From Escherichia coli (lineage in GTDB: Bacteria; Pseudomonadota; Gammaproteobacteria; Enterobacterales; Enterobacteriaceae), in assembly GCF_048403405.1 (NCBI RefSeq), contig NZ_CP183129.1: 64,000 bases of DNA. The stretch is one strand, 5' to 3'. The position numbers were made by a program, and so were the translations under genes. The notes under the pieces are model-generated. The model saw only the letters and a list, made by a program, of their open reading frames with translations, was not told where the DNA came from and did not search any database. Shown here one piece after another: positions 3,991 through 38,465 of this stretch. Within the stretch, counting starts at the first letter, position 1; each line of letters starts with the position of its first letter.

Positions 3991-4019
3991 TAATCCTCCC
4001 GCCAGAAGAATAAAACATA

Positions 4020-4051
4020 GCCCGGTATACAAGTGTATACCGGGCTTTTTT
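4020..4051. terminator. Intrinsic terminator hairpin between convergent parE and the receptor gene
   Basis: GC-rich inverted repeat cccggtataca/tgtataccggg followed by a T6 run. Confidence 0.6.
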
Positions 4052-7378: not shown

Positions 7379-8358
7379 TGCGCACAGGGCTGGTTACTGT
7401 AATTTTCCTCGCCTTACTGCTGGTGGGATGCGTGGTATATCCAGGGATTGGTGCCCGATTTATTGCACCACAAACGGTGTTGCAGGCATTTCTTCATTTT
7501 GAACCGCAAAACTTCGATCACAACGTAATTGTAAGACTCCGTTTGCCGCGTTTAGCGGCAGCATTGCTTACCGGTGCTTCTCTTGGAGTTGCTGGTGCTT
7601 TGTTGCAGGCTGTCATTCGTAACCCATTGGGGGAGCCACATATTTTAGGCTTAAATGCCGGAGCCGCTCTTGCTGTCGTTGCTGCCACTGCGCTTGGGCT
7701 GGCCTTTCCGGTTGGACGCCCACTGCTGGCATCTACGGGCGGCGCGTTATTGTTCCTGTTGATATTGCTGCTTTCCTCCGCAGGGCGTTCAGGGTTAACG
7801 CCAATGAAAGTTACTTTATGCGGCGTGGCGCTATCGGCGTTCGTGTCCTCAATAACGGCTGCAATCCTGATTCTTGACGAACAAACACTGCTGGCGATGC
7901 GGACATGGCTAGCAGGTGATTTAGCGGGGCAGGATTGGGTGACGCTGGGTACGTCCGCCTGGTTTTCTCTGGGGGGGGTTGTGTTAGCCATTTACCTTGC
8001 GCCCTCTCTTAACATGTTGGCACTGGGTGATCGCATGGCGCAGGGGCTGGGCGTCTCGGTACTCCGCACGCGAACATTCACTCTGCTTGCGATCGCGTTG
8101 CTCTGTGGCGCAGCCGTATCGATTGCTGGCCCCATTGGTTTTGTCGGTCTGCTAGTACCGCAGATTGTCAGGCGTCTGGTATCAGCGGATCTGCGCGTTC
8201 TGCTCCCTCTTTCAGCTTGTGTCGGCGCGCTTTTGTTATTACTGGCAGATATTATTGCCCGGACGCTTTTCACGCCCCATGAGTTAGCGACCGGTGTCAT
8301 GACGGCGTTAGTTGGTGCGCCTGTTTTTGTCATTATGGCGACGAGGATGTTCAAATGA
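7375..8358 (+). CDS. ABC transporter permease, FecCD/BtuC family
   Basis: 327 aa polytopic membrane protein; 4-bp overlap with the upstream ATPase gene. Confidence 0.9.
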   Translation: MMRTGLVTVIFLALLLVGCVVYPGIGARFIAPQTVLQAFLHFEPQNFDHNVIVRLRLPRLAAALLTGASLGVAGALLQAVIRNPLGEPHILGLNAGAALAVVAATALGLAFPVGRPLLASTGGALLFLLILLLSSAGRSGLTPMKVTLCGVALSAFVSSITAAILILDEQTLLAMRTWLAGDLAGQDWVTLGTSAWFSLGGVVLAIYLAPSLNMLALGDRMAQGLGVSVLRTRTFTLLAIALLCGAAVSIAGPIGFVGLLVPQIVRRLVSADLRVLLPLSACVGALLLLLADIIARTLFTPHELATGVMTALVGAPVFVIMATRMFK

Positions 8359-9404
8359 GTCGGATAATGAACGTCGGGCTACGTCCACTACGTGTTGGTA
8401 AGTTTTCGACACTGGTACGCCCTAAAAATCTGGTGTTGCTTGGTGGGCTGTTTCTGTTTGCGGTTGGAATACTGATATTCGGTCTGATGCATGGTTCTTT
8501 TTCTGTCCCGGCATCGGAAGTAGGACGAGCGTTGTTTGCTCCAGAAAACGTAAGCACAGACGCACGTTATATTGTGCAGGATATTCGCTTGCCGAGAGTC
8601 ATCATGGCATTGCTATGCGGAGCCATGTTAGGTATGGCGGGGGCCGCGATGCAATCCATTGCGCGTAACGGCCTTGCCGATCCTGGTTTAATCGGCGTCA
8701 AAGAAGGATGTAGCGTGGCGGTGCTGTGGCTGATTTTCCAGTTTCCAATGCTGGGAATGTTCTGGCGTCCAGTGGCTGGTCTTGCTGGTGGCTTGTTGGT
8801 GGCTTTAATCGTGATTTTTTGTGCACGCGATATTTCCCGCCCGCGATTTGTTCTGATTGGTATTGGTGTTTCCTGGTTTTTCGCCGCCGGTATCGGTGTA
8901 TTTATGACCACTGCAGATGTTCGAGATGTACAAACTGCATTGATGTGGTTATCGGGAAGCCTGCATGCAGCTAACTGGATGTTAGTCGGTATTTCAGCCT
9001 GTTGGATGTTGCCAGCCGCTCTTTTATTGCTGTTCACCGCCAGGACGGCGGATATCGCTCTGCTTGGTCATCAGGTTGCAACCGGGTTAGGGGTGAATAG
9101 TTCTCGTCTGGCGTTGTTACGTGTCGCCGCACCAATAATCCTGACAGCCGTCTGCGTTTCGTGTGTTGGTAACATCGGTTTTGTCGGATTGATAGCACCC
9201 CATATATCACGTTTTATTCTACGTGGCGGGCAGACGACATTACTGCTGGGGAGCGCCGTATCGGGGGCGTTGTTAGTCATCCTGGCGGATAGCATTGGTC
9301 GTTTGGCTTTTTTGCCTTTGCAACTGCCTGCCGGAATCATTATTTCATTGATTGGTGGACCATTCTTTTTGCTACTGCTCTGGCAGCGCAGGAACAGTTT
9401 TTAA
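8355..9404 (+). CDS. ABC transporter permease, FecCD/BtuC family (second subunit)
   Basis: 349 aa polytopic membrane protein, paralogous to the preceding permease; 4-bp overlap. Confidence 0.9.
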   Translation: MSRIMNVGLRPLRVGKFSTLVRPKNLVLLGGLFLFAVGILIFGLMHGSFSVPASEVGRALFAPENVSTDARYIVQDIRLPRVIMALLCGAMLGMAGAAMQSIARNGLADPGLIGVKEGCSVAVLWLIFQFPMLGMFWRPVAGLAGGLLVALIVIFCARDISRPRFVLIGIGVSWFFAAGIGVFMTTADVRDVQTALMWLSGSLHAANWMLVGISACWMLPAALLLLFTARTADIALLGHQVATGLGVNSSRLALLRVAAPIILTAVCVSCVGNIGFVGLIAPHISRFILRGGQTTLLLGSAVSGALLVILADSIGRLAFLPLQLPAGIIISLIGGPFFLLLLWQRRNSF

Positions 9405-9414
9405 TGGGAGTTAT

Positions 9415-10362
9415 ATGCGTTTATTTTTTTCTCTGCTGATACTGTTGTCATTCTTTGCCCGCGCGACAGAACCTGTTCAGGTCTTTACTGATGATTTAGG
9501 GCGCAAAGTCACTGTTCCTGCTCATCCAAAGAGAATTGTCTCTTTACACGATCTTGATATCACTATTCCTCTGATTGAGCTCGGTGTACCTCCTGTCGCC
9601 AGCCACGGACGAACCCGGCCTGACGGTAGCCATTTCATTCGATCAGGCGCGTTATTGACAGGTGTCGACTTTGATAATTCATCGATCGCTTTTATTGGCA
9701 CCGCTGATATTGATATTGAAGCGATTGTGGCGGCAAAGCCTGACCTGATCATCACAGAACCGACCCGTAATACGCCCATTGAACAACTGGAAAAAATTGC
9801 GCCCACGGTGAGCATTGATCATCTCAAAGGAGGCGCGCCAGAAATCTACCGCAAGCTGGCAGAACTTACAGGAACGCAGTCGCAGCTGGCGATACTTGAA
9901 CGCCGCTATCAGGCACAAATCAATGCGCTGAAGGCGACGCTGGACAGCCAAAAAATAACGGTATCGGTGATTCAGGCAAATCAGGGAAAAATTAATGTGA
10001 TGCATAGCTATCATTCGCTGGGGCGGGTATTACGCGATGCTGGTTTTCGCTTTCCGCCGCTGATTGAGAGCATTCCTGAAGGTGGGCGAATGGATGTGAG
10101 CGCAGAGCGTTTACCTGAACTGGATGCCGATTTTGTTTTTGCAACCTGGCGCGGTGACACCGGTGGTAAACCTCAGGATGAGCTGGCAGCAATGGAAAAA
10201 GTCATGCCGGGATGGTGTCAGTTTCTGACGGCCTGTCGTTCCGGGCGCTATGTGCTGATTTCTCGTGAAGAGGCGATTTCTAACTCCTTTGCATCTCTGG
10301 GGCTGATGGCTGCGCAGATACAATCACAAATTGCGGGACGACCTCTACCGGAGGCTAAATGA
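9415..10362 (+). CDS. Periplasmic siderophore-binding protein of the ABC importer
   Basis: Start moved to the in-frame ATG at 9415, which has a GGGAG ribosome-binding site and begins a typical signal peptide (MRLFFSLLILLSFFARA); the tracked ORF begins upstream at 9352. Confidence 0.85.
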   Translation: MRLFFSLLILLSFFARATEPVQVFTDDLGRKVTVPAHPKRIVSLHDLDITIPLIELGVPPVASHGRTRPDGSHFIRSGALLTGVDFDNSSIAFIGTADIDIEAIVAAKPDLIITEPTRNTPIEQLEKIAPTVSIDHLKGGAPEIYRKLAELTGTQSQLAILERRYQAQINALKATLDSQKITVSVIQANQGKINVMHSYHSLGRVLRDAGFRFPPLIESIPEGGRMDVSAERLPELDADFVFATWRGDTGGKPQDELAAMEKVMPGWCQFLTACRSGRYVLISREEAISNSFASLGLMAAQIQSQIAGRPLPEAK

Positions 10363-11246
10363 TCCAGAAAGACAAAACGCGGGTTGATATTTATGGTGAG
10401 CGTTTTCGCACTCGCGCGAGTCAGTTAACGCCTGGGTTAAGAACTGTCGCAAGCTACATTAATGAGCATCGTGAAGTGGTACTCGAGCAAACGGCGATGG
10501 AAATTGCGGCCACGTTGAACACTTCCGATGCCACAGTTATCAGGGCTATACAGGCTCTGGGGTTTGCCGGGCTGCGTGATCTGAAACGCACACTGGAACA
10601 GTGGCTTGGTCCAGCCCTTAGTTCCAGCGAAAAGATGTCTACGACGGTGAGTAACTTGACGAGCGATGTTAACACCGCAATCGACTTTGTTCTTGAAGGG
10701 CATTTGTATACTTGTAATGTCCTGTCAGAGCCTGAAAACCGCCACGCGCTTGCGCAAGCTGTAGCGTTGTTGGTGCAGGCACGGCAAGTCGCTATTTTTG
10801 GCATTGGCGCTTCGGGTATCCTGGCGGACTATACCGCACGACTATTCAACCGCATAGGTTTGCCTGCCACGGCACTAAACCGTACGGGTATTGGCCTTGC
10901 CGAGCAACTGATCGCGCTTCAACGTGGCGATGTTCTGATCATGATGGCGCAAAAATCTGCGCACCGGGAAGGGCTGACAACGCTTCGTGAGGCGAGGCGG
11001 CTGGGGATCCCTGTTATTTTGCTGACAAACGCGCTGGATTCACGTTTTAGCAAAGACGCCAGTATCGTGATTCATGTTCCGCGCGGGGATGAAAGGGGGA
11101 AAACGCCACTACATGGTACGGTATTGTTGTGCCTGGAAATGATTGTTTGGTCGGTGGCTTCCGCGATGCCGCAGCGTGCGGTTAAAACCATTAAGCGAAT
11201 TAACGATTTCCATCGGGGTTTGAAAACGGGAAGAAAGAATGGCTAA
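10359..11246 (+). CDS. RpiR/MurR-family transcriptional regulator (helix-turn-helix plus SIS domain)
   Basis: 295 aa; N-terminal HTH and C-terminal sugar-isomerase-like domain pattern; start overlaps the binding-protein stop (ATGA). Confidence 0.8.
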   Translation: MIQKDKTRVDIYGERFRTRASQLTPGLRTVASYINEHREVVLEQTAMEIAATLNTSDATVIRAIQALGFAGLRDLKRTLEQWLGPALSSSEKMSTTVSNLTSDVNTAIDFVLEGHLYTCNVLSEPENRHALAQAVALLVQARQVAIFGIGASGILADYTARLFNRIGLPATALNRTGIGLAEQLIALQRGDVLIMMAQKSAHREGLTTLREARRLGIPVILLTNALDSRFSKDASIVIHVPRGDERGKTPLHGTVLLCLEMIVWSVASAMPQRAVKTIKRINDFHRGLKTGRKNG

Positions 11247-11290: not shown

Positions 11291-11605
11291 TTAAATCCCC
11301 GGTTGCAGAATACGGATATTCATCTCCAGCACGTCGCCTTTTACGGCTTCGCTGTACGCCTTCATGTGCGGGGTTTGCAGATGCGCTTCAAGATGCGCGA
11401 TGCTTTCCCACTGCTCAATCATCACGATAGAATCCGGTGCCATAGACTGGAAACTCACGCCAGCAGCGCAATCCACCATTGGCGTATAGCCGTGGCAACC
11501 TTCTTCTTTCAGTACGGTTGGAACGATTTTAGCAAACTGATCCAATACTGCCTGACGGTGATGTTGACCAGGACGAGTACGGATTTCTGCGATTACGGTA
11601 AGCAT
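11291..11605 (-). CDS. ygiN: Quinol monooxygenase YgiN (ABM domain)
   Basis: 104 aa; adjacent to mdaB as in K-12. Confidence 0.92.
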   Translation of the reverse strand: MLTVIAEIRTRPGQHHRQAVLDQFAKIVPTVLKEEGCHGYTPMVDCAAGVSFQSMAPDSIVMIEQWESIAHLEAHLQTPHMKAYSEAVKGDVLEMNIRILQPGI

Positions 11606-11635
11606 GGTTAACTCCTTCTAAAGCCTGAGCTCTAG

Positions 11636-12217
11636 TTAACCAAAAATTTCCACAAGATGCTTGCGATATTCTTCAGTATAGCGGGGAACATCAGGCATTT
11701 TTATCACGTCATTAGCGATAAATGTCGGCAGCGGTTCCATGCCAAGGAATTGGTTTGCTTTATGGAACGGCAGATACACACCGTCAACGCCAACGCCGTG
11801 GAAGAACTGATCTTTTTCGGTGAAGGCTTCCATTGGTGCGTTCCAGGTCAGAGAAAGCATATATTTTTTGCCCTGTACCAGGCCGCCGGAACCGTATTTT
11901 TTCGACGGATCTTTGCGGGTACGACCATCGCTGGCATACAGCGTCCCGTGACCTTCGGTGAATACATCATCAATGTATTTTTTCACTGTCCACGGCGCGC
12001 CCATCCACCAGCCTGGCATCTGCCAGATCACCACATCAGCCCAGAGAAAGTTTTGTACTTCCGCTTTGACATCGTAGTCGCTGTCGGCGCGAACGATGCG
12101 GACATCATGCCCGAGGTCGCGCAACGTGCCATCCGCGACTTCGGTCAGGGTGTCGTTCAGTTGACCATTGGAGTGGGCGAATTTTTTCGCGCCGTTGATA
12201 ATCAGGATGTTGCTCAT
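11636..12217 (-). CDS. mdaB: NADPH:quinone oxidoreductase MdaB
   Basis: 193 aa; flavodoxin-like quinone reductase; synteny. Confidence 0.93.
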   Translation of the reverse strand: MSNILIINGAKKFAHSNGQLNDTLTEVADGTLRDLGHDVRIVRADSDYDVKAEVQNFLWADVVIWQMPGWWMGAPWTVKKYIDDVFTEGHGTLYASDGRTRKDPSKKYGSGGLVQGKKYMLSLTWNAPMEAFTEKDQFFHGVGVDGVYLPFHKANQFLGMEPLPTFIANDVIKMPDVPRYTEEYRKHLVEIFG

Positions 12218-12278
12218 TTTTTAACCTCAAGGTGAGACGTTTGTCGACTATAGTACGTCACAGAGCGGTACGGTGAAA

Positions 12279-12318
12279 TTAGCAAAATGTGCAAAGTCTT
12301 TTGCTAATTTAGCAAAAG
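12279..12318. promoter_or_regulatory. Candidate operator: perfect 10-1-10 palindrome plus a third half-site, upstream of mdaB
   Basis: cttttgctaa-t-ttagcaaaag at 12298-12318 is a perfect inverted repeat; a third copy, ttagcaaaat, lies at 12279-12288; located 60-100 bp upstream of the mdaB start codon. Confidence 0.4.
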
Positions 12319-12466
12319 TCTGATCTTGCTCTGATTCACCGATGCGGGATAAATATTTTCTGAAAATGACAATACTGAAATCAACTTCCTATAAGTTCCC
12401 ACAGGAGAGATGTATTATGTAAATGATAAAGTAGTTTTTCGGAAAAAATAATCATGGAGAATATAT

Positions 12467-12946
12467 ATGTCAAATATCATATACTTATCAATTAAAGGAA
12501 AAACACAAGGTTTGATCTCTGAGGGCTGTGGTTCGTATGCATCTATTGGTAATAAATATCAAATAAATCATGTGGATGAAATTTTTGTTTTACAGTTCGA
12601 CCATTCTTTAAGTCGAGAATATAATGTAGTGCATCATCCCATAAAATTTTACAAGCCAATAGATAAATCCTCTCCTTTATTAAATGCTGCTCTTTCTGAA
12701 AATGAAGAGTTATCAGCTGTATTTAATTTTTATAGAATTAATTCTGGCGGTTGTATTGAAAGGTTTTACACAATTGAATTGCAAGGGGCATATTTATCGA
12801 ATATTCTGACTTGTTATCCACACTCAATTACACATGCGGGTAATCAACCGGAAGAGGTCATTGTTCTTAATTATAAAAATATAACATGGAAGCACCATAT
12901 CGCGAGTACGGAATCATATAGCTGTTGGGAAGAAAGGATTTTTTAA
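12467..12946 (+). CDS. hcp: Type VI secretion Hcp-family protein (orphan hcp)
   Basis: 159 aa; Hcp-like blocks IYLSIKGKTQGLISEGC, HHPIKFYKPIDKSSPLL and NYKNITWKHH; GGAGA ribosome-binding site 6 nt upstream; AT-rich gene. Confidence 0.8.
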   Translation: MSNIIYLSIKGKTQGLISEGCGSYASIGNKYQINHVDEIFVLQFDHSLSREYNVVHHPIKFYKPIDKSSPLLNAALSENEELSAVFNFYRINSGGCIERFYTIELQGAYLSNILTCYPHSITHAGNQPEEVIVLNYKNITWKHHIASTESYSCWEERIF

Positions 12947-12948
12947 AT

Positions 12949-13659
12949 ATGAAAAGCGATCTCACTATAAAAAATAGATATTGTACAATTCCACAAACGA
13001 AGTTCCGTAAATGGGATGAAATGGACGTTTTACTCTGGAAGTTAGGAAAAAATGATTCGCGTCGCCGTTCAGGAGTATATTATTTAAATGCTTATAAAGA
13101 TGCATATGTACAATATAATAGGGACAAAATAATTAAACATGCATATGCCGCAGGGATTCGTCCAGAGTTATTGGGCGGCGTGGCCTGGATTGAGTCAGGA
13201 GGTATGCCTGAAAATTATAAGTTTCAGATATATGAAACAAAAAGAATGATCGGATCGTTAGATATGCCTGAAAATAAAACATCATTTGGCTCAATGGGTA
13301 TACAAATACGAACCGCAGCGATTACTCTAGGCCTTGACCCTTCAGAATTAACTACCAGAAATCAGTTAGAGTTAGCGACATGCCTGATGGAAGATGATTT
13401 TACCTTTAAAATTGCTGCTACTCATTTAAGAGATCTTGCCCTTTTTGATTATCCCTCTTCGGCAACACTGTATATGACGAATGAGCAGTATATTATGGCT
13501 GGTATTAGATATAATCGTGGTGTTGAACGAGATTTGGGTTTTTTTATTTATTTAATTAATAATTTGCCTGCGCGTGATACAGATGATTATAAATTCATCT
13601 CTTATGGTATGAGGTTGTTAGAGATTAGAGAACATATCAAAAAATTGATCAATGAGTAA
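12949..13659 (+). CDS. Hypothetical protein with lysozyme/lytic-transglycosylase-like motifs; candidate Hcp-associated cell-wall-targeting effector
   Basis: Start set at the ATG at 12949 (GAAAGGA ribosome-binding site) 2 nt after the hcp stop; motifs WIESGG, FGSMGIQI and IRYNRG resemble the soluble-lytic-transglycosylase E-S / GLMQ / AYNAG pattern; function is inferred. Confidence 0.5.
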   Translation: MKSDLTIKNRYCTIPQTKFRKWDEMDVLLWKLGKNDSRRRSGVYYLNAYKDAYVQYNRDKIIKHAYAAGIRPELLGGVAWIESGGMPENYKFQIYETKRMIGSLDMPENKTSFGSMGIQIRTAAITLGLDPSELTTRNQLELATCLMEDDFTFKIAATHLRDLALFDYPSSATLYMTNEQYIMAGIRYNRGVERDLGFFIYLINNLPARDTDDYKFISYGMRLLEIREHIKKLINE

Positions 13660-13665
13660 TCAGAG

Positions 13666-13995
13666 ATGTTAAAAAAACAACTACTATCAATATTTGAAGC
13701 ACTATTATACATAATGCTTACTTATTGGTTAATAGATGCTTTTTTTGCTTTCAATAAGTATGACTGGATGCTTGAGTCGGGAGACAATATTTGCAGTATA
13801 CCTTCCGTTTCAGGCGAAGATCGTATATTGCAAGCAATGATTGCAGCATTTTTTCTTCTGACGCCACTTATTATTCTTATCTTAAGAAAACTCTTTATGC
13901 GGGAAATGTTCGAGTTTTGGCTATATGTATTCACGCTCGTTATTTGTTTGGTTTGTGGTTGGTGGCTTTTTTGGGGACGGTTTATATTTTGCTAA
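13666..13995 (+). CDS. ygiZ: Small inner-membrane protein (about 3 transmembrane helices); K-12 YgiZ occupies this position; candidate immunity protein
   Basis: 109 aa with three hydrophobic segments; starts 7 nt after the preceding gene; K-12 has the about 110 aa membrane protein YgiZ between mdaB and qseC (recollection); the immunity role is inferred. Confidence 0.6.
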   Translation: MLKKQLLSIFEALLYIMLTYWLIDAFFAFNKYDWMLESGDNICSIPSVSGEDRILQAMIAAFFLLTPLIILILRKLFMREMFEFWLYVFTLVICLVCGWWLFWGRFIFC

Positions 13996-14005
13996 TAGTA
14001 AAATC

Positions 14006-14033
14006 TATGAGAGTCGTTTTAACGGCTCTCATA
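14006..14033. terminator. Hairpin between convergent ygiZ-like gene and qseC
   Basis: Inverted repeat tatgagag(tcg)/(cgg)ctctcata with a 6-nt loop; a U-tract follows only on the minus-strand transcript. Confidence 0.4.
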
Positions 14034-14043
14034 GACAGAGAAG

Positions 14044-16049: not shown

Positions 16050-16200
16050 TTTTTCATCCCTGCGATAACCGTATTTGCTGCCAGTAAACCGTGTTGTAAC
16101 GCGCTCTGTACAGCATTAAATTTTATTTTTTTCCCTTAAGAAGTTGTTAAGGACTATCTTGTTAAATGCTCGGAAACAGACATTAAAGGGAGTAATAAAC

Positions 16201-23701: not shown

Positions 23702-23706
23702 TCTTC

Positions 23707-23731
23707 ATACTCGCCCGAGGAGGGCGAGTAT
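23707..23731 (+). terminator. Hairpin downstream of ftsP
   Basis: 9-bp stem atactcgcc/ggcgagtat with a short loop; T-rich tail is weak. Confidence 0.45.
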
Positions 23732-23811
23732 GGAATACCTTTCGATTTCTCTTTCGTTCCGGCTTATAATCCCCGGCCTTTGATTATTTTTTTATCATTT
23801 CTGGAAGCAAA

Positions 23812-28334: not shown

Positions 28335-28438
28335 ACGTTCCTCCTTTATATGAACTCACCGGAGCAGGCTCCGGTGAGGTGTTGTGAACTTAAGTCTGGA
28401 CGAAATGCCCGAAAACGAAAGTTTGAGGCGTAAAAAGC

Positions 28439-29602: not shown

Positions 29603-29738
29603 TACTTGCTCCCTTTGCTGGGTCAATATGAGGGCAGAGAACGATCTGCCTGATGTTTTTCATTGTGATCGCCAGCGCCCTGGCTCTCAATGCTCATTTC
29701 TGCCAATGTCTTGCCTATTTCTCCAGAGTGCTGGAGAA

Positions 29739-30695
29739 ATGCTACAAAATTGCGCACAATCAAATTGCCGCATTATTCCTAAGAAATTACGCGATATGAA
29801 ACGTGAAGAGATTTGCCGCTTGCTGGCGGATAAAGTTAATACACTGAAAAATAAAGAAAATGGTTTGTCAGAGCTGTTGCCCGATGTGCGTTTGTTGTAT
29901 GGCGAGACGCCTTTCGCACGTACACCGGTAATGTACGAGCCTGGCATCATAATTCTCTTTTCCGGGCATAAAATCGGTTATATCAATGAACGCGTGTTTC
30001 GTTATGATGCCAATGAATACCTGCTGCTGACGGTGCCGTTGCCGTTTGAGTGCGAAACCTATGCCACGTCAGAGGTGCCGCTGGCAGGGTTGCGTCTCAA
30101 TGTCGATATTTTGCAGTTACAGGAACTGTTGATGGACATTGGCGAAGATGAGCATTTCCAGCCGTCGATGGCAGCCAGCGGGATTAACTCTGCCACGTTA
30201 TCAGAAGAGATTTTATGCGCGGCGGAGCGGTTACTCGACGTGATGGAGCGACCGCTGGATGCGCGTATTCTCGGCAAACAGATCATCCGCGAAATTCTGT
30301 ACTACGTGCTGACCGGACCTTGCGGCGGTGCGTTACTGGCGCTGGTCAGTCGCCAGACTCACTTCAGCCTGATTAGCCGCGTGCTGAAACGGATTGAGAA
30401 TAAATACACCGAAAACCTGAGCGTCGAGCAACTGGCGGCAGAAGCCAACATGAGCGTATCGGCGTTCCACCATAATTTTAAGTCTGTCACTAGCACCTCG
30501 CCGTTGCAGTATTTGAAGAATTACCGTCTGCATAAGGCGCGGATGATGATCATCCACGACGGCATGAAAGCCAGCGCGGCGGCGATGCGCGTCGGCTATG
30601 AAAGCGCATCGCAATTTAGCCGTGAGTTTAAACGTTACTTCGGTGTGACGCCGGGGGAAGATGCGGCAAGAATGCGGGCGATGCAGGGGAATTAA
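29739..30695 (+). CDS. yqhC: AraC-family transcriptional activator YqhC
   Basis: Start set at the ATG at 29739 with a GGAG ribosome-binding site, giving 318 aa; C-terminal AraC-type helix-turn-helix; divergent from yqhD. Confidence 0.9.
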
Positions 30696-37871: not shown

Positions 37872-37989
37872 TAGGTTTATCTCTTACGGGATTACGTCTT
37901 AAACAAGCATGAAAAAATAGCGTGCGCAAAAGTCGTTCTTTGCCTAAAATATCGCTATATATGGCAATATATAGCGAATGAGGTGAACG

Positions 37990-38277: not shown

Positions 38278-38465
38278 TCAAACATACGTATTATCTTGCT
38301 TTAATTAATTACACTAATGCTTCTTCCCTTCGTTTTAGCGCCCCGCCGCAGTATCATGATATCGATAACCATAATAAATGTGTGGTAAATGGCGCATCGA
38401 TCGCATTATTGATTTTGCGATTGAGGCAAAATATATGCCAGGTCTTCGCAACGGAATAACTATAA

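What the first reader, a model, noticed from the sequence alone, without database searches (positions are those of the whole stretch)
12279..12318. Perfect 21-bp palindrome with a third half-site upstream of mdaB
cttttgctaa-t-ttagcaaaag is a perfect inverted repeat (10 bp arms), and another ttagcaaaat half-site lies 10 bp upstream. This is the signature of a dimeric (possibly tandem) regulator binding site. It sits 60-100 bp upstream of the mdaB start and about 150 bp upstream of hcp, so it could control either gene.
Basis: seen in the sequence. Interest (0 to 1): 0.45.

Follow-up and report, generated by a model that had tools for sequence, protein, structure and literature searches.

The report
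Predicted YafC operator upstream of mdaB
The palindrome is the strain-specific "perfected" form of an ancient control site of the mdaB (quinone reductase) promoter, and comparison across genomes points to YafC, an uncharacterised LysR-type regulator, as the protein that binds it.

Summary
The palindrome CTTTTGCTAA-T-TTAGCAAAAG is real (12298-12318) and non-random. It is perfect in only about 4% of complete E. coli genomes; K-12 and O157 carry one mismatch, in a position that is free to vary. It predates the hcp islet. Across 84 Enterobacterales the invariant core is (A)TTATTGC-N7-GCAAAAG. The 7-bp spacer varies, and the core always lies 42 nt before a conserved -10 hexamer of mdaB, so the dyad centre is at about -65. 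The same box in the same promoter geometry lies upstream of dkgB, which is next to yafC. It also abuts the yafC start codon in many genera. In one organism yafC is divergent from mdaB with the box between them. This is the classic layout of a LysR-type recognition site, so I predict it is the YafC operator of mdaB-ygiN. In E. coli that dyad also matches a MarA/SoxS/Rob marbox. Terminator, QseB, YhaJ, YtfH and YcaN readings were tested and rejected. Nothing here is biochemical: binding by YafC is inferred. The kind of element is known; the regulator assignment and motif appear new.

The parts
12298..12318 (-). Palindrome = predicted YafC recognition site (RBS-type dyad). On the mdaB strand: TTGC 12315..12312, spacer N7 12311..12305, GCAA 12304..12301, flanked by ACTT (12319..12316) and AAG (12300..12298). 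The dyad centre is 12308, about -65 from the inferred mdaB start.
   Evidence: sequence. (invariant in 84 taxa, spacer variable, fixed 42 nt to the -10). (same box at yafC and dkgB, and yafC divergent from mdaB in L092).
12305..12305 (.). SNP that makes the palindrome perfect (T here; G in K-12, O157 and other Escherichia species). It is the last position of the variable spacer.
12276..12295 (-). Second element D, TTTGCACATTTTGCTAATTT. It contains the weaker dyad TTGC(12294..12291)-N7-GCTA(12283..12280), centre about -44, which resembles an activation-site (ABS) dyad. It also matches a forward MarA/SoxS/Rob marbox overlapping the -35.
   Evidence: PMC12052159 Table S2 lists GCACATTTTGCTAAT as a predicted marbox.
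12272..12277 (-). -35-like hexamer TTCACC of the inferred mdaB promoter P1.
   Evidence: TTCACC, TTTACC or TTTTCC at this fixed position in most of the 84 taxa..
12250..12255 (-). -10 hexamer TACTAT of the inferred promoter P1, 16-bp spacer. The start is expected near 12243-12245.
   Evidence: a TAnnnT hexamer lies exactly 42 nt after GCAAAAG in 83 of 84 taxa. No direct start-site mapping was available.
11291..12217 (-). Regulated operon mdaB (11636-12217) and ygiN (11291-11605).
   Evidence: Co-transcription was shown in Salmonella (PMC2653508).
12321..12322 (.). Junction where the ygiZ-containing DNA (here also hcp and a 236-aa ORF) was inserted. It lies immediately outside the extended palindrome. 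In O157:H7 and E. albertii the qseC stop codon follows 5 nt beyond this point.
38413..38431 (.). Second perfect box in the window, TTTTGC-GATTGAG-GCAAAA, 34 nt upstream of the hybO ATG (38466). It is a candidate further YafC site in a different position (not -65).
   Evidence: 21.1 bits on the box matrix, with the next best non-regulon hit at 13.2.

Best explanation
The palindrome is the high-affinity recognition site (RBS-type T-N11-A dyad) of a LysR-type regulator at about -65 of the mdaB-ygiN promoter. The regulator is most likely YafC. Proposed mechanism (inferred): a YafC tetramer holds the strong dyad TTGC-N7-GCAA (12315..12301) with one pair of DNA-binding domains. The other pair holds the weaker dyad TTGC-N7-GCTA about 21 bp downstream, next to the -35. 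An effector would shift or bend the complex and activate RNA polymerase at P1 (-35 TTCACC, -10 TACTAT). The effector is unknown; given the regulon, a quinone or reactive carbonyl is the obvious guess. The same protein would control dkgB through an identical promoter layout, and would repress its own gene through a box abutting its start codon. In Escherichia, Salmonella and Citrobacter the downstream dyad doubles as a class II-type marbox. That accounts for the published MarA/SoxS/Rob/RamA dependence of mdaB. The two systems would then share, and possibly compete for, about 20 bp. Shown here: the sequence, its conservation, the fixed geometry, recurrence of the box at yafC and dkgB, and yafC-mdaB synteny in one organism. 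Inferred: that YafC is the binding protein, the direction of regulation, the effector and the transcription start.
For: (1) Footprint at mdaB. In 81 Enterobacteriaceae sequences, ATTATTGC-N7-GCAAAAGACTTTGCACATTTTGC is at least 90% conserved while the 7-bp spacer is 40-50% conserved. The U box also survives in Shimwellia, Tenebrionibacter and strain 4M9, where parC or an alcohol-dehydrogenase-like gene (Shimwellia), not qseC, lies upstream. (2) Fixed geometry. A TAnnnT hexamer lies exactly 42 nt after GCAAAAG in 83 of 84 taxa, with a -35-like hexamer 16 bp before it, so the dyad centre is at about -65. (3) Synteny. In L092 a 303-aa LysR-type gene is divergent from mdaB, and ATTATTGC-TGTATGA-GCAAAAG lies in the 145-bp intergenic region at the same 42-nt distance from TATTAT. 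That protein scores 506.8 bits on the NCBIfam equivalog model for YafC (cut-off 470) and is 75% identical to K-12 YafC. (4) Autoregulatory site. K-12 yafC has TTTTGC-N7-GCAAAA abutting its ATG. So do Dickeya and Lelliottia and all 34 distinct yafC upstream variants from metagenomes, with varying spacers. (5) Second target with identical layout. dkgB lies next to yafC. It carries ATTATTGC-N7-GCAAAAA, then 20 nt, TTTTCC, 16 nt, CATAAT in K-12, and the equivalent in Dickeya. All 48 dkgB upstream variants recovered carry the box (two with ACAA in place of GCAA). Of the 46 captured by the spacing pattern, 44 have [G/C/A]ATAAT exactly 42 nt after the box. (6) Specificity. A 19-nt matrix built from these sites gives only four hits above 20 bits in the window plus 36 kb of K-12: mdaB, yafC, dkgB and hybO. 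The next best is 13.2. TTGC-N7-GCAA occurs 75 times at -100..-51 of mdaB in 80 loci and only 16 times elsewhere in 427 kb. (7) For the marbox layer: mdaB is cited as a mar regulon member (PMC2989944). It falls 3.2-fold in a Salmonella ramA mutant (PMC3139621). D scores 10.4 bits on a matrix built from 87 ChIP-seq sites, a background tail of 2e-4.
Against: No binding or expression data for YafC were available. Literature searches pairing mdaB with marbox, MarA/SoxS/Rob, ChIP-exo and YhaJ named no YafC link. The Galagan compendium reports 37 YafC ChIP-seq sites but no motif model, and its held supplement mentions neither mdaB nor dkgB. The promoter P1 and the -65 position rest on conservation, not on a mapped start. 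A K-12 start-site list instead has starts corresponding to about 12269 and about 12317. One Salmonella yafC locus has lost the box at yafC although Salmonella keeps it at mdaB. Outside the 4-bp core the two half-sites are not mirror images in most genera: ATTA versus AAAG, with A.A at position 8 from the centre in 65 of 75 sequences. The palindrome also scores as a weak marbox (9.4 bits). Another protein could in principle recognise the box, with yafC merely one of its targets.
Confidence: 0.7

Rival explanations
1. The palindrome is a second marbox. A MarA/SoxS/Rob(/RamA) monomer would bind it in tandem with the one on element D, 21 bp upstream and in the same orientation.
For: On a matrix built from 87 Salmonella ChIP-seq sites the palindrome scores 9.4 bits forward and 8.9 reverse. 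The forward frame stays positive in all 81 taxa, median 8.7. PMC12052159 Table S2 lists GCTAAATTCGCAAAA at mdaB as a predicted marbox. The conserved blocks fall on marbox positions 1-5 and 13-18.
Against: The most informative marbox positions after GC (A6, C7) are not conserved; A6 is A in only 6 of 75 sequences. A forward marbox centred near -63.5 fits neither class I (reverse) nor class II as defined in PMC12052159. The same box recurs at dkgB and at the yafC start codon, which are not reported marbox promoters in anything I read, with the GCA again absent. No ChIP-seq peak at mdaB was reported in Salmonella, although that assay has low sensitivity.
Confidence: 0.12
2. The box is an operator for a different, unidentified dimeric regulator. 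yafC and dkgB are simply further members of that regulon.
For: Conservation alone does not name the protein. No YafC motif has been published in the sources I could read.
Against: The combination is the textbook signature of a LysR-type regulator acting on its own box: a T-N11-A dyad at about -65, a box on the regulator's own gene, a neighbouring target gene, and a divergent regulator-target pair in L092. The candidates I could test do not fit. YhaJ recognises TCA-N7-TGA. The qorB-ytfH and ycaN-ycaK intergenic regions lack the box.
Confidence: 0.1
3. It acts as an RNA or DNA hairpin: a terminator or processing site for qseBC read-through, or a 5' stem-loop of a longer mdaB transcript.
For: In the ancestral arrangement it lies 5-12 nt after the qseC stop codon. 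The window RNA 12340..12262 folds to -26.2 kcal/mol, z = -4.9. One K-12 start-site list has a 5' end near 12317.
Against: The scan found no terminator-like site: no G+C-rich stem and no U tract. The core hairpin is weak: -8.9 kcal/mol here, -6.8 in K-12 and -3.6 for the cross-genus consensus. The stem never covaries; it is invariant, while the loop varies and position 8 is an A.A mismatch in most genera. The element persists where no gene ends upstream (parC divergent, or yafC divergent). It recurs at dkgB and yafC. The outer flanks that lengthen the fold are not significantly complementary (p = 0.2).
Confidence: 0.04
4. It is the QseB (PreA) binding site through which the neighbouring two-component system activates mdaB.
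For: PreA overexpression raises mdaB 7- to 32-fold in Salmonella. The authors proposed direct binding and left the site undefined (PMC2653508).
Against: The qseB promoter in this window carries a PmrA-like direct repeat, CTTAAC-N5-CTTAAG (16151..16135). Nothing resembling it lies upstream of mdaB in any genus. The box exists in taxa whose mdaB locus has no qseBC. The PreA effect could be indirect, through read-through or through the 605-fold induced AraC/GyrI-like STM3175.
Confidence: 0.03

Closest known systems
LysR-type regulator promoters with an RBS (T-N11-A dyad near -65) plus an ABS near -35/-45, for example BenM/CatM ATAC-N7-GTAT sites (general description in PMC11739112; the BenM/CatM details are from my own knowledge)
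   Same: An interrupted dyad with 4-6 specific bases per half-site and a 7-bp free spacer (T-N11-A). The centre lies at about -65 of the target promoter. A weaker second dyad lies about 21-22 bp downstream, next to the -35. There is a box on the regulator's own gene, and in one organism the regulator is divergent from the target.
   Different: The half-site sequence (TTGC/GCAA) is distinct. In E. coli the regulator gene is 2.9 Mb from mdaB (230 kb versus 3.17 Mb on the K-12 map), so this is trans regulation of an unlinked operon. At yafC the box sits on the ribosome-binding region and start codon rather than in a divergent promoter. No effector or binding data exist.
YhaJ box of E. coli (TCA-N7-TGA; yqjF, yhaK, ybiJ, ygiD, yhhW; PMC5031710)
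   Same: A LysR-type T-N11-A dyad with a 7-bp spacer that controls scattered genes for quinol and aromatic detoxification. It is the closest functional analogue in the same organism.
   Different: The recognition bases differ (TCA/TGA versus TGC/GCA). mdaB is not among the published YhaJ targets; a search for YhaJ together with mdaB returned no paper.
marRAB marbox and class II MarA/SoxS/Rob promoters
   Same: Element D, read on the + strand as AAATTAGCAAAATGTGCAAA (12276-12295), resembles the mar marbox GATTTAGCAAAACGTGGCAT (quoted from memory). It is in forward orientation overlapping the -35, and mdaB is a published mar/ram regulon gene. The repeated word TTAGCAAAA equals the promoter-proximal recognition element of that marbox.
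   Different: The palindrome itself lacks the GCAC element. In most genera D reads GCTCAT, scoring 2.9 bits. The marbox is an asymmetric monomer site, whereas the palindrome is a dyad.

Membership tests
LysR-type regulator recognition site (RBS) | Interrupted dyad of the T-N11-A type | tested here: met
   T-TGC-N7-GCA-A. The core is invariant in 72-75 of 75 distinct sequences per position and the spacer varies.
LysR-type regulator recognition site (RBS) | Centred near -65 of the regulated promoter | tested here: met
   There are 42 nt from GCAAAAG to a conserved TAnnnT hexamer in 83 of 84 mdaB promoters and in 44 of 46 dkgB promoters. The start site itself is inferred, not mapped.
LysR-type regulator recognition site (RBS) | A second, weaker site (ABS) next to the -35 | tested here: inconclusive
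   mdaB has TTGC-N7-GCTA 21 bp downstream. dkgB has CTGC-N7-G(C/A)TC 22 bp downstream. In the deeper taxa L084-L086 this second dyad is not recognisable.
LysR-type regulator recognition site (RBS) | Cognate regulator gene linked to a target and carrying its own box (autoregulation) | tested here: met
   yafC is divergent from mdaB in L092. dkgB is adjacent to yafC. The box abuts the yafC ATG in E. coli, Dickeya, Lelliottia and 34 of 34 metagenomic variants. One Salmonella locus is an exception.
LysR-type regulator recognition site (RBS) | Demonstrated binding by the regulator (EMSA, footprint, ChIP) | not testable with these tools
   YafC ChIP-seq exists (37 sites, no motif model), but the peak list is not in the held text.
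Marbox (MarA/SoxS/Rob/RamA site) | Asymmetric 20-bp consensus AYnGCACnnWnnRYYAAAYn (15-nt core gcannwwntgnnaaa, PMC12052159) | tested here: not met
   This row is for the palindrome. GC and GCAAAA are conserved, but A6 and C7 are not: A6 is A in 6 of 75 sequences. For element D the feature is met in E. coli, with 12 of 14 specified positions and 10.4 bits.
Marbox (MarA/SoxS/Rob/RamA site) | Class I (reverse, about -56 to -85) or class II (forward, -36 to -55) placement | tested here: not met
   The palindrome read as a forward frame is centred at about -63.5. D is forward at about -42.5 and so meets class II. Definitions are from PMC12052159; positions are.
Intrinsic terminator / structured RNA | G+C-rich stem followed by a U tract, or covariation that preserves pairing | tested here: not met
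QseB/PmrA-type response-regulator site | Direct repeats of CTTAA-like hexamers about 11 bp apart | tested here: not met
   The repeat is present at the qseB promoter (16151..16135) and absent upstream of mdaB.
YhaJ box | TCA-N7-TGA | tested here: not met
   Searches compared.

The most novel reading that the evidence does not exclude
YafC is a so far undescribed quinone/carbonyl-stress regulator of Enterobacterales. Its operator is TT(A/T)TTGC-N7-GCAAAA, and its core regulon is mdaB-ygiN, dkgB and yafC itself. A further repressive site may sit in front of the hydrogenase-2 operon (hybO). At mdaB its activation site is physically the same DNA as the MarA/SoxS/Rob marbox. Two stress systems would therefore compete or cooperate on one 20-bp segment.
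Probability: 0.45. Interest if true: 0.65.

Novelty: new member of a known kind. Interest (0 to 1): 0.6.

Why it matters
YafC is one of the E. coli transcription factors still without a function, a motif or a regulon. A recent ChIP-seq compendium could not derive a motif for it. mdaB is regularly seen in drug-tolerance and oxidative-stress screens, and its control has been credited only to MarA/SoxS/Rob/RamA or, in Salmonella, to PreA. A specific operator, three or four concrete target promoters and a fixed promoter geometry turn "what does YafC do" into a few-day experiment. They would also explain the deep conservation of about 45 bp upstream of mdaB. They give a reason why the ygiZ/hcp DNA was tolerated only just outside this block. 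They also warn against reading perfect palindromy as the functional feature, since the perfect form is a neutral spacer variant.

Tried and rejected
(1) qseC terminator or RNA hairpin: no terminator features, no covariation, weak energy, and the element persists without an upstream gene end.

(2) Longer quasi-palindrome involving the inserted DNA: the 79-nt fold looked strong, but the outer flanks are not significantly complementary (p = 0.2).

(3) QseB/PreA site: no PmrA-like repeat, and the box is present in loci without qseBC.

(4) Palindrome as a marbox: it scores moderately, but the GCA(C) element is not conserved and the placement is wrong.

(5) STM3175 / full-length YgiV (AraC plus GyrI-like, Rob-like; PMC10414762). 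I considered it because it is locally encoded and PreA-induced. It does not fit. Escherichia lacks its DNA-binding domain yet keeps the box. The left arm differs from the cross-genus consensus in the same way in Escherichia, which lacks the domain, and in Salmonella, which keeps it.

(6) YhaJ: its box is TCA-N7-TGA.

(7) YtfH (HxlR-type, next to qorB) and YcaN (LysR-type, next to the MdaB-family gene ycaK): their intergenic regions lack the box.

(8) Fis, IHF, FNR, CytR, PurR and CpxR consensus sequences, compared from memory: spacing or bases do not fit. These were not tested with tools.

(9) Salmonella ChIP-seq for MarA/SoxS/Rob/RamA: no mdaB peak, but the assay also misses several classic targets, so it is uninformative.

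(10) The papers by Martin and Rosner (2002) and Martin et al. (2008), which would give the published mdaB marbox, are not held.

(11) Gao et al. 2021 ChIP-exo: no YafC.

Full report
**Where we are.** The window is 100% identical to E. coli strain ST2747. The palindrome lies in the intergenic DNA upstream of mdaB (11636-12217, minus strand) and ygiN (11291-11605, minus). Beyond it, on the plus strand, lie an Hcp-family ORF (12467-12946), a 236-aa ORF with no Pfam match, and ygiZ (13666-13995). Then come qseC and qseB on the minus strand.

**The observation.** CTTTTGCTAA-T-TTAGCAAAAG occupies 12298-12318 exactly as described, and a third TTAGCAAAAT lies at 12279-12288. Three of the four exact TTAGCAAAA words in 64 kb are here. 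Perfect palindromes of this size are about ten times more frequent in the window than in Markov-shuffled sequence. Most of the others are probably terminators, though I did not check them. So the feature is real.

It is perfect only in a minority lineage, however. The exact 60-mer is found in 218 of 5422 complete E. coli genomes. K-12-like and O157:H7 genomes, and the other Escherichia species, carry G at 12305, which gives one mismatch.

**It predates the islet and marks a boundary.** K-12 shares the sequence up to about 12380-12398 and lacks hcp. O157:H7 lacks ygiZ as well. There the homology stops at 12321, and the qseC stop codon follows 5 nt later. E. albertii, most other genera and Salmonella (106-bp preB-mdaB spacer, PMC2653508) have this compact arrangement. 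The ygiZ DNA, with or without hcp, was therefore inserted immediately outside the extended palindrome.

**Phylogenetic footprint at mdaB.** I fetched mdaB loci from 80 species-level genomes and seven more distant MdaB loci. Read in the mdaB direction, ATTATTGC-N7-GCAAAAGACTTTGCACATTTTGC-T-n-ATTT is at least 90% conserved across Escherichia, Salmonella, Citrobacter, Klebsiella, Enterobacter, Kluyvera, Leclercia, Kosakonia and others. The seven bases between TTGC and GCAA are only 40-50% conserved.

The inner TAA/TTA arms are not conserved, and the SNP at 12305 falls in the free spacer. The stem never covaries, and position 8 from the centre is an A.A mismatch in most genera. The hairpin is weak: -8.9 kcal/mol here and -3.6 for the consensus. 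No terminator-like site is found. Conservation is at the level of double-stranded sequence, which indicates a protein site.

**Fixed geometry.** In 83 of 84 taxa a TAnnnT hexamer lies exactly 42 nt after GCAAAAG (TACTAT in E. coli, 12255..12250). A -35-like hexamer lies 16 bp upstream of it (TTCACC, 12277..12272). This holds even in Shimwellia, Tenebrionibacter and strain 4M9. There the intervening DNA has diverged, and mdaB-ygiN sits between parC and parE with no qseBC. With a start about 7 nt after the hexamer, the dyad centre (12308) is at about -65. Acinetobacter has none of this.

**The downstream element and the third half-site.** It matches the marbox consensus at 12 of 14 specified positions. 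It scores 10.4 bits on a matrix I built from the 87 sites in Table 1 of the Salmonella MarA/SoxS/Rob/RamA ChIP-seq study (PMC10268841). It is oriented forward and overlaps the -35.

The literature agrees with this. mdaB is cited as a mar regulon gene (PMC2989944). It is among the most RamA-dependent genes in Salmonella (PMC3139621). A 2025 computational screen lists this sequence as a candidate marbox, and also GCTAAATTCGCAAAA inside the palindrome (PMC12052159 Table S2).

The palindrome itself is a poor marbox. The A and C of GCAC are not conserved, and a forward site at -63.5 fits neither class. In most genera the downstream element reads GCTCAT and scores only 2.9 bits. It is not conserved in the deeper taxa. 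The marbox is thus a younger layer on an older promoter.

**Finding the protein.** TTGC-N7-GCAA is a T-N11-A dyad at -65, the textbook position of a LysR-type recognition site. The downstream element is itself TTGC-N7-GCTA, 21 bp away, like an activation site. I tested candidates. YhaJ recognises TCA-N7-TGA. The qorB-ytfH and ycaN-ycaK intergenic regions lack the box.

The break came from a contig (L092) whose MdaB is 81% identical to the E. coli protein. A LysR-type gene is divergent from mdaB there. The 145-bp intergenic region carries ATTATTGC-TGTATGA-GCAAAAG, with TATTAT exactly 42 nt downstream. That protein is a YafC equivalog (NCBIfam NF040888, 506.8 bits against a cut-off of 470) and is 75% identical to K-12 YafC.

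**The box at yafC and dkgB.** In K-12, TTTTGC-TCCTGTT-GCAAAA abuts the yafC start codon. The same holds in Dickeya (TTTTGC-TGGAGAA-GCAAAA|ATG) and Lelliottia. It also holds in all 34 distinct yafC upstream variants recovered from metagenomes, again with varying spacers.

The gene next to yafC is dkgB, an aldo-keto reductase. In K-12 it has ATTATTGC-CAGAATC-GCAAAAA, then 20 nt, TTTTCC, 16 nt, CATAAT. Dickeya has the same layout. All 48 distinct dkgB variants recovered carry the box (two with ACAA). Of the 46 captured by the spacing pattern, 44 have [G/C/A]ATAAT exactly 42 nt after it. dkgB also has a second dyad, CTGC-N7-G(C/A)TC, 22 bp downstream.

The consensus sequences are:
- mdaB: ATTA TTGC n7 GCAA AAGACT
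- dkgB: ATTA TTGC n7 GCAA AAATCC
- yafC: AATT TTGC n7 GCAA nAATG

A matrix from these sites gives only four hits above 20 bits in the window plus 36 kb of K-12. They are mdaB (26.4), yafC (22.9), dkgB (22.7) and a site 34 nt upstream of hybO (21.1). The next best is 13.2.

**Interpretation.** The most economical reading is that the palindrome is the YafC recognition site of the mdaB-ygiN promoter. The "third half-site" belongs to the activation-site dyad, which in E. coli doubles as the MarA/SoxS/Rob marbox. The positions suggest activation at mdaB and dkgB (box at -65) and repression at yafC (box over the ribosome-binding region). The regulon comprises a quinone reductase, a quinol monooxygenase and a dicarbonyl reductase. 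That suggests a quinone or reactive-carbonyl signal, but this is a guess.

All of this is inference from sequence. I found no paper linking YafC to mdaB or giving a YafC motif. One ChIP-seq compendium reports 37 YafC sites with no model, and a ChIP-exo survey does not include YafC.

**Open points.**
- The start site is inferred. A K-12 start-site list has 5' ends equivalent to about 12269 and about 12317. The first fits an extended -10 (TGCTAATTT) inside the marbox.
- One Salmonella yafC has lost its own box.
- The PreA effect on mdaB in Salmonella is unexplained. It may be indirect.

**Verdict.** The "regulator site" reading is right in kind, wrong in detail, and wrong about hcp. The element is an ordinary type of bacterial operator. 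Its assignment to an uncharacterised regulator, with a motif and a small coherent regulon, appears to be new and is directly testable.

Noticed in passing
window 38413-38431: A second perfect box, TTTTGC-GATTGAG-GCAAAA, lies 34 nt upstream of the hybO (hydrogenase 2 small subunit) start codon. It scores 21.1 bits on the box matrix, and the surrounding 86-mer is identical in 5395 of 5418 E. coli genomes. Its position is unlike the -65 layout, so if real it would be repressive. Conservation outside E. coli was not checked.
   Followed up: partly
window 12467-13995: The Hcp ORF has a full-length PF05638 match, but RefSeq flags it as a pseudogene with an internal stop. It is followed by a 236-aa ORF with no Pfam match and then ygiZ (DUF2645), with almost no intergenic space. 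This looks like a split Hcp-toxin fusion plus an immunity gene. K-12 keeps only ygiZ, which may therefore be an orphan type VI immunity gene. O157:H7 has none of the three.
   Followed up: partly
window 16135-16151 (minus strand): A PmrA-like direct repeat, CTTAAC-N5-CTTAAG, lies in the ygiW-qseB intergenic region. It is the likely QseB autoregulatory box. I used it only as a negative comparison for mdaB.
   Followed up: partly
window 14005-14034: A 9-bp perfect inverted repeat (CTATGAGAG ... CTCTCATAG) lies between the convergent ygiZ and qseC ends. It is probably a bidirectional terminator that came in with the ygiZ insertion.
   Followed up: no
window 8355-11246: FecCD-type permease, siderophore-binding protein and MurR/RpiR regulator genes lie next to ygiN, where K-12 has parE. 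They are another strain-variable insertion at this locus, and are also present in O157:H7.
   Followed up: no
L084-L086, L090, L091: In deeper Enterobacterales, mdaB-ygiN lies directly between parC and parE. The qseBC-ygiW(-ygiV) block of core Enterobacteriaceae therefore looks like a later insertion between parC and the mdaB control region.
   Followed up: partly
L097 2455-2503: One Salmonella enterica yafC locus has a TTG start, and the box at the start codon has decayed (GCCAAAC-TACAGGT-ACAAAT). The Salmonella mdaB promoters nevertheless keep the box. Autoregulation may have been lost there.
   Followed up: no
window 12269 and 12317 (from K-12 coordinates 3170500 and 3170452, U00096.2): A published K-12 start-site list places 5' ends inside the control region. 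One fits an extended -10, TGCTAATTT, that overlaps the marbox. The other lies at the outer edge of the palindrome. Neither is the conserved promoter inferred here.
   Followed up: partly
window 4019-4046, 23706-23732, 28355-28378, 29717-29740, 37952-37977, 48027-48061, 53139-53160: Seven other perfect palindromes with arms of 10-15 nt and loops of at most 5 nt. They are presumably terminators, but I did not examine them.
   Followed up: no
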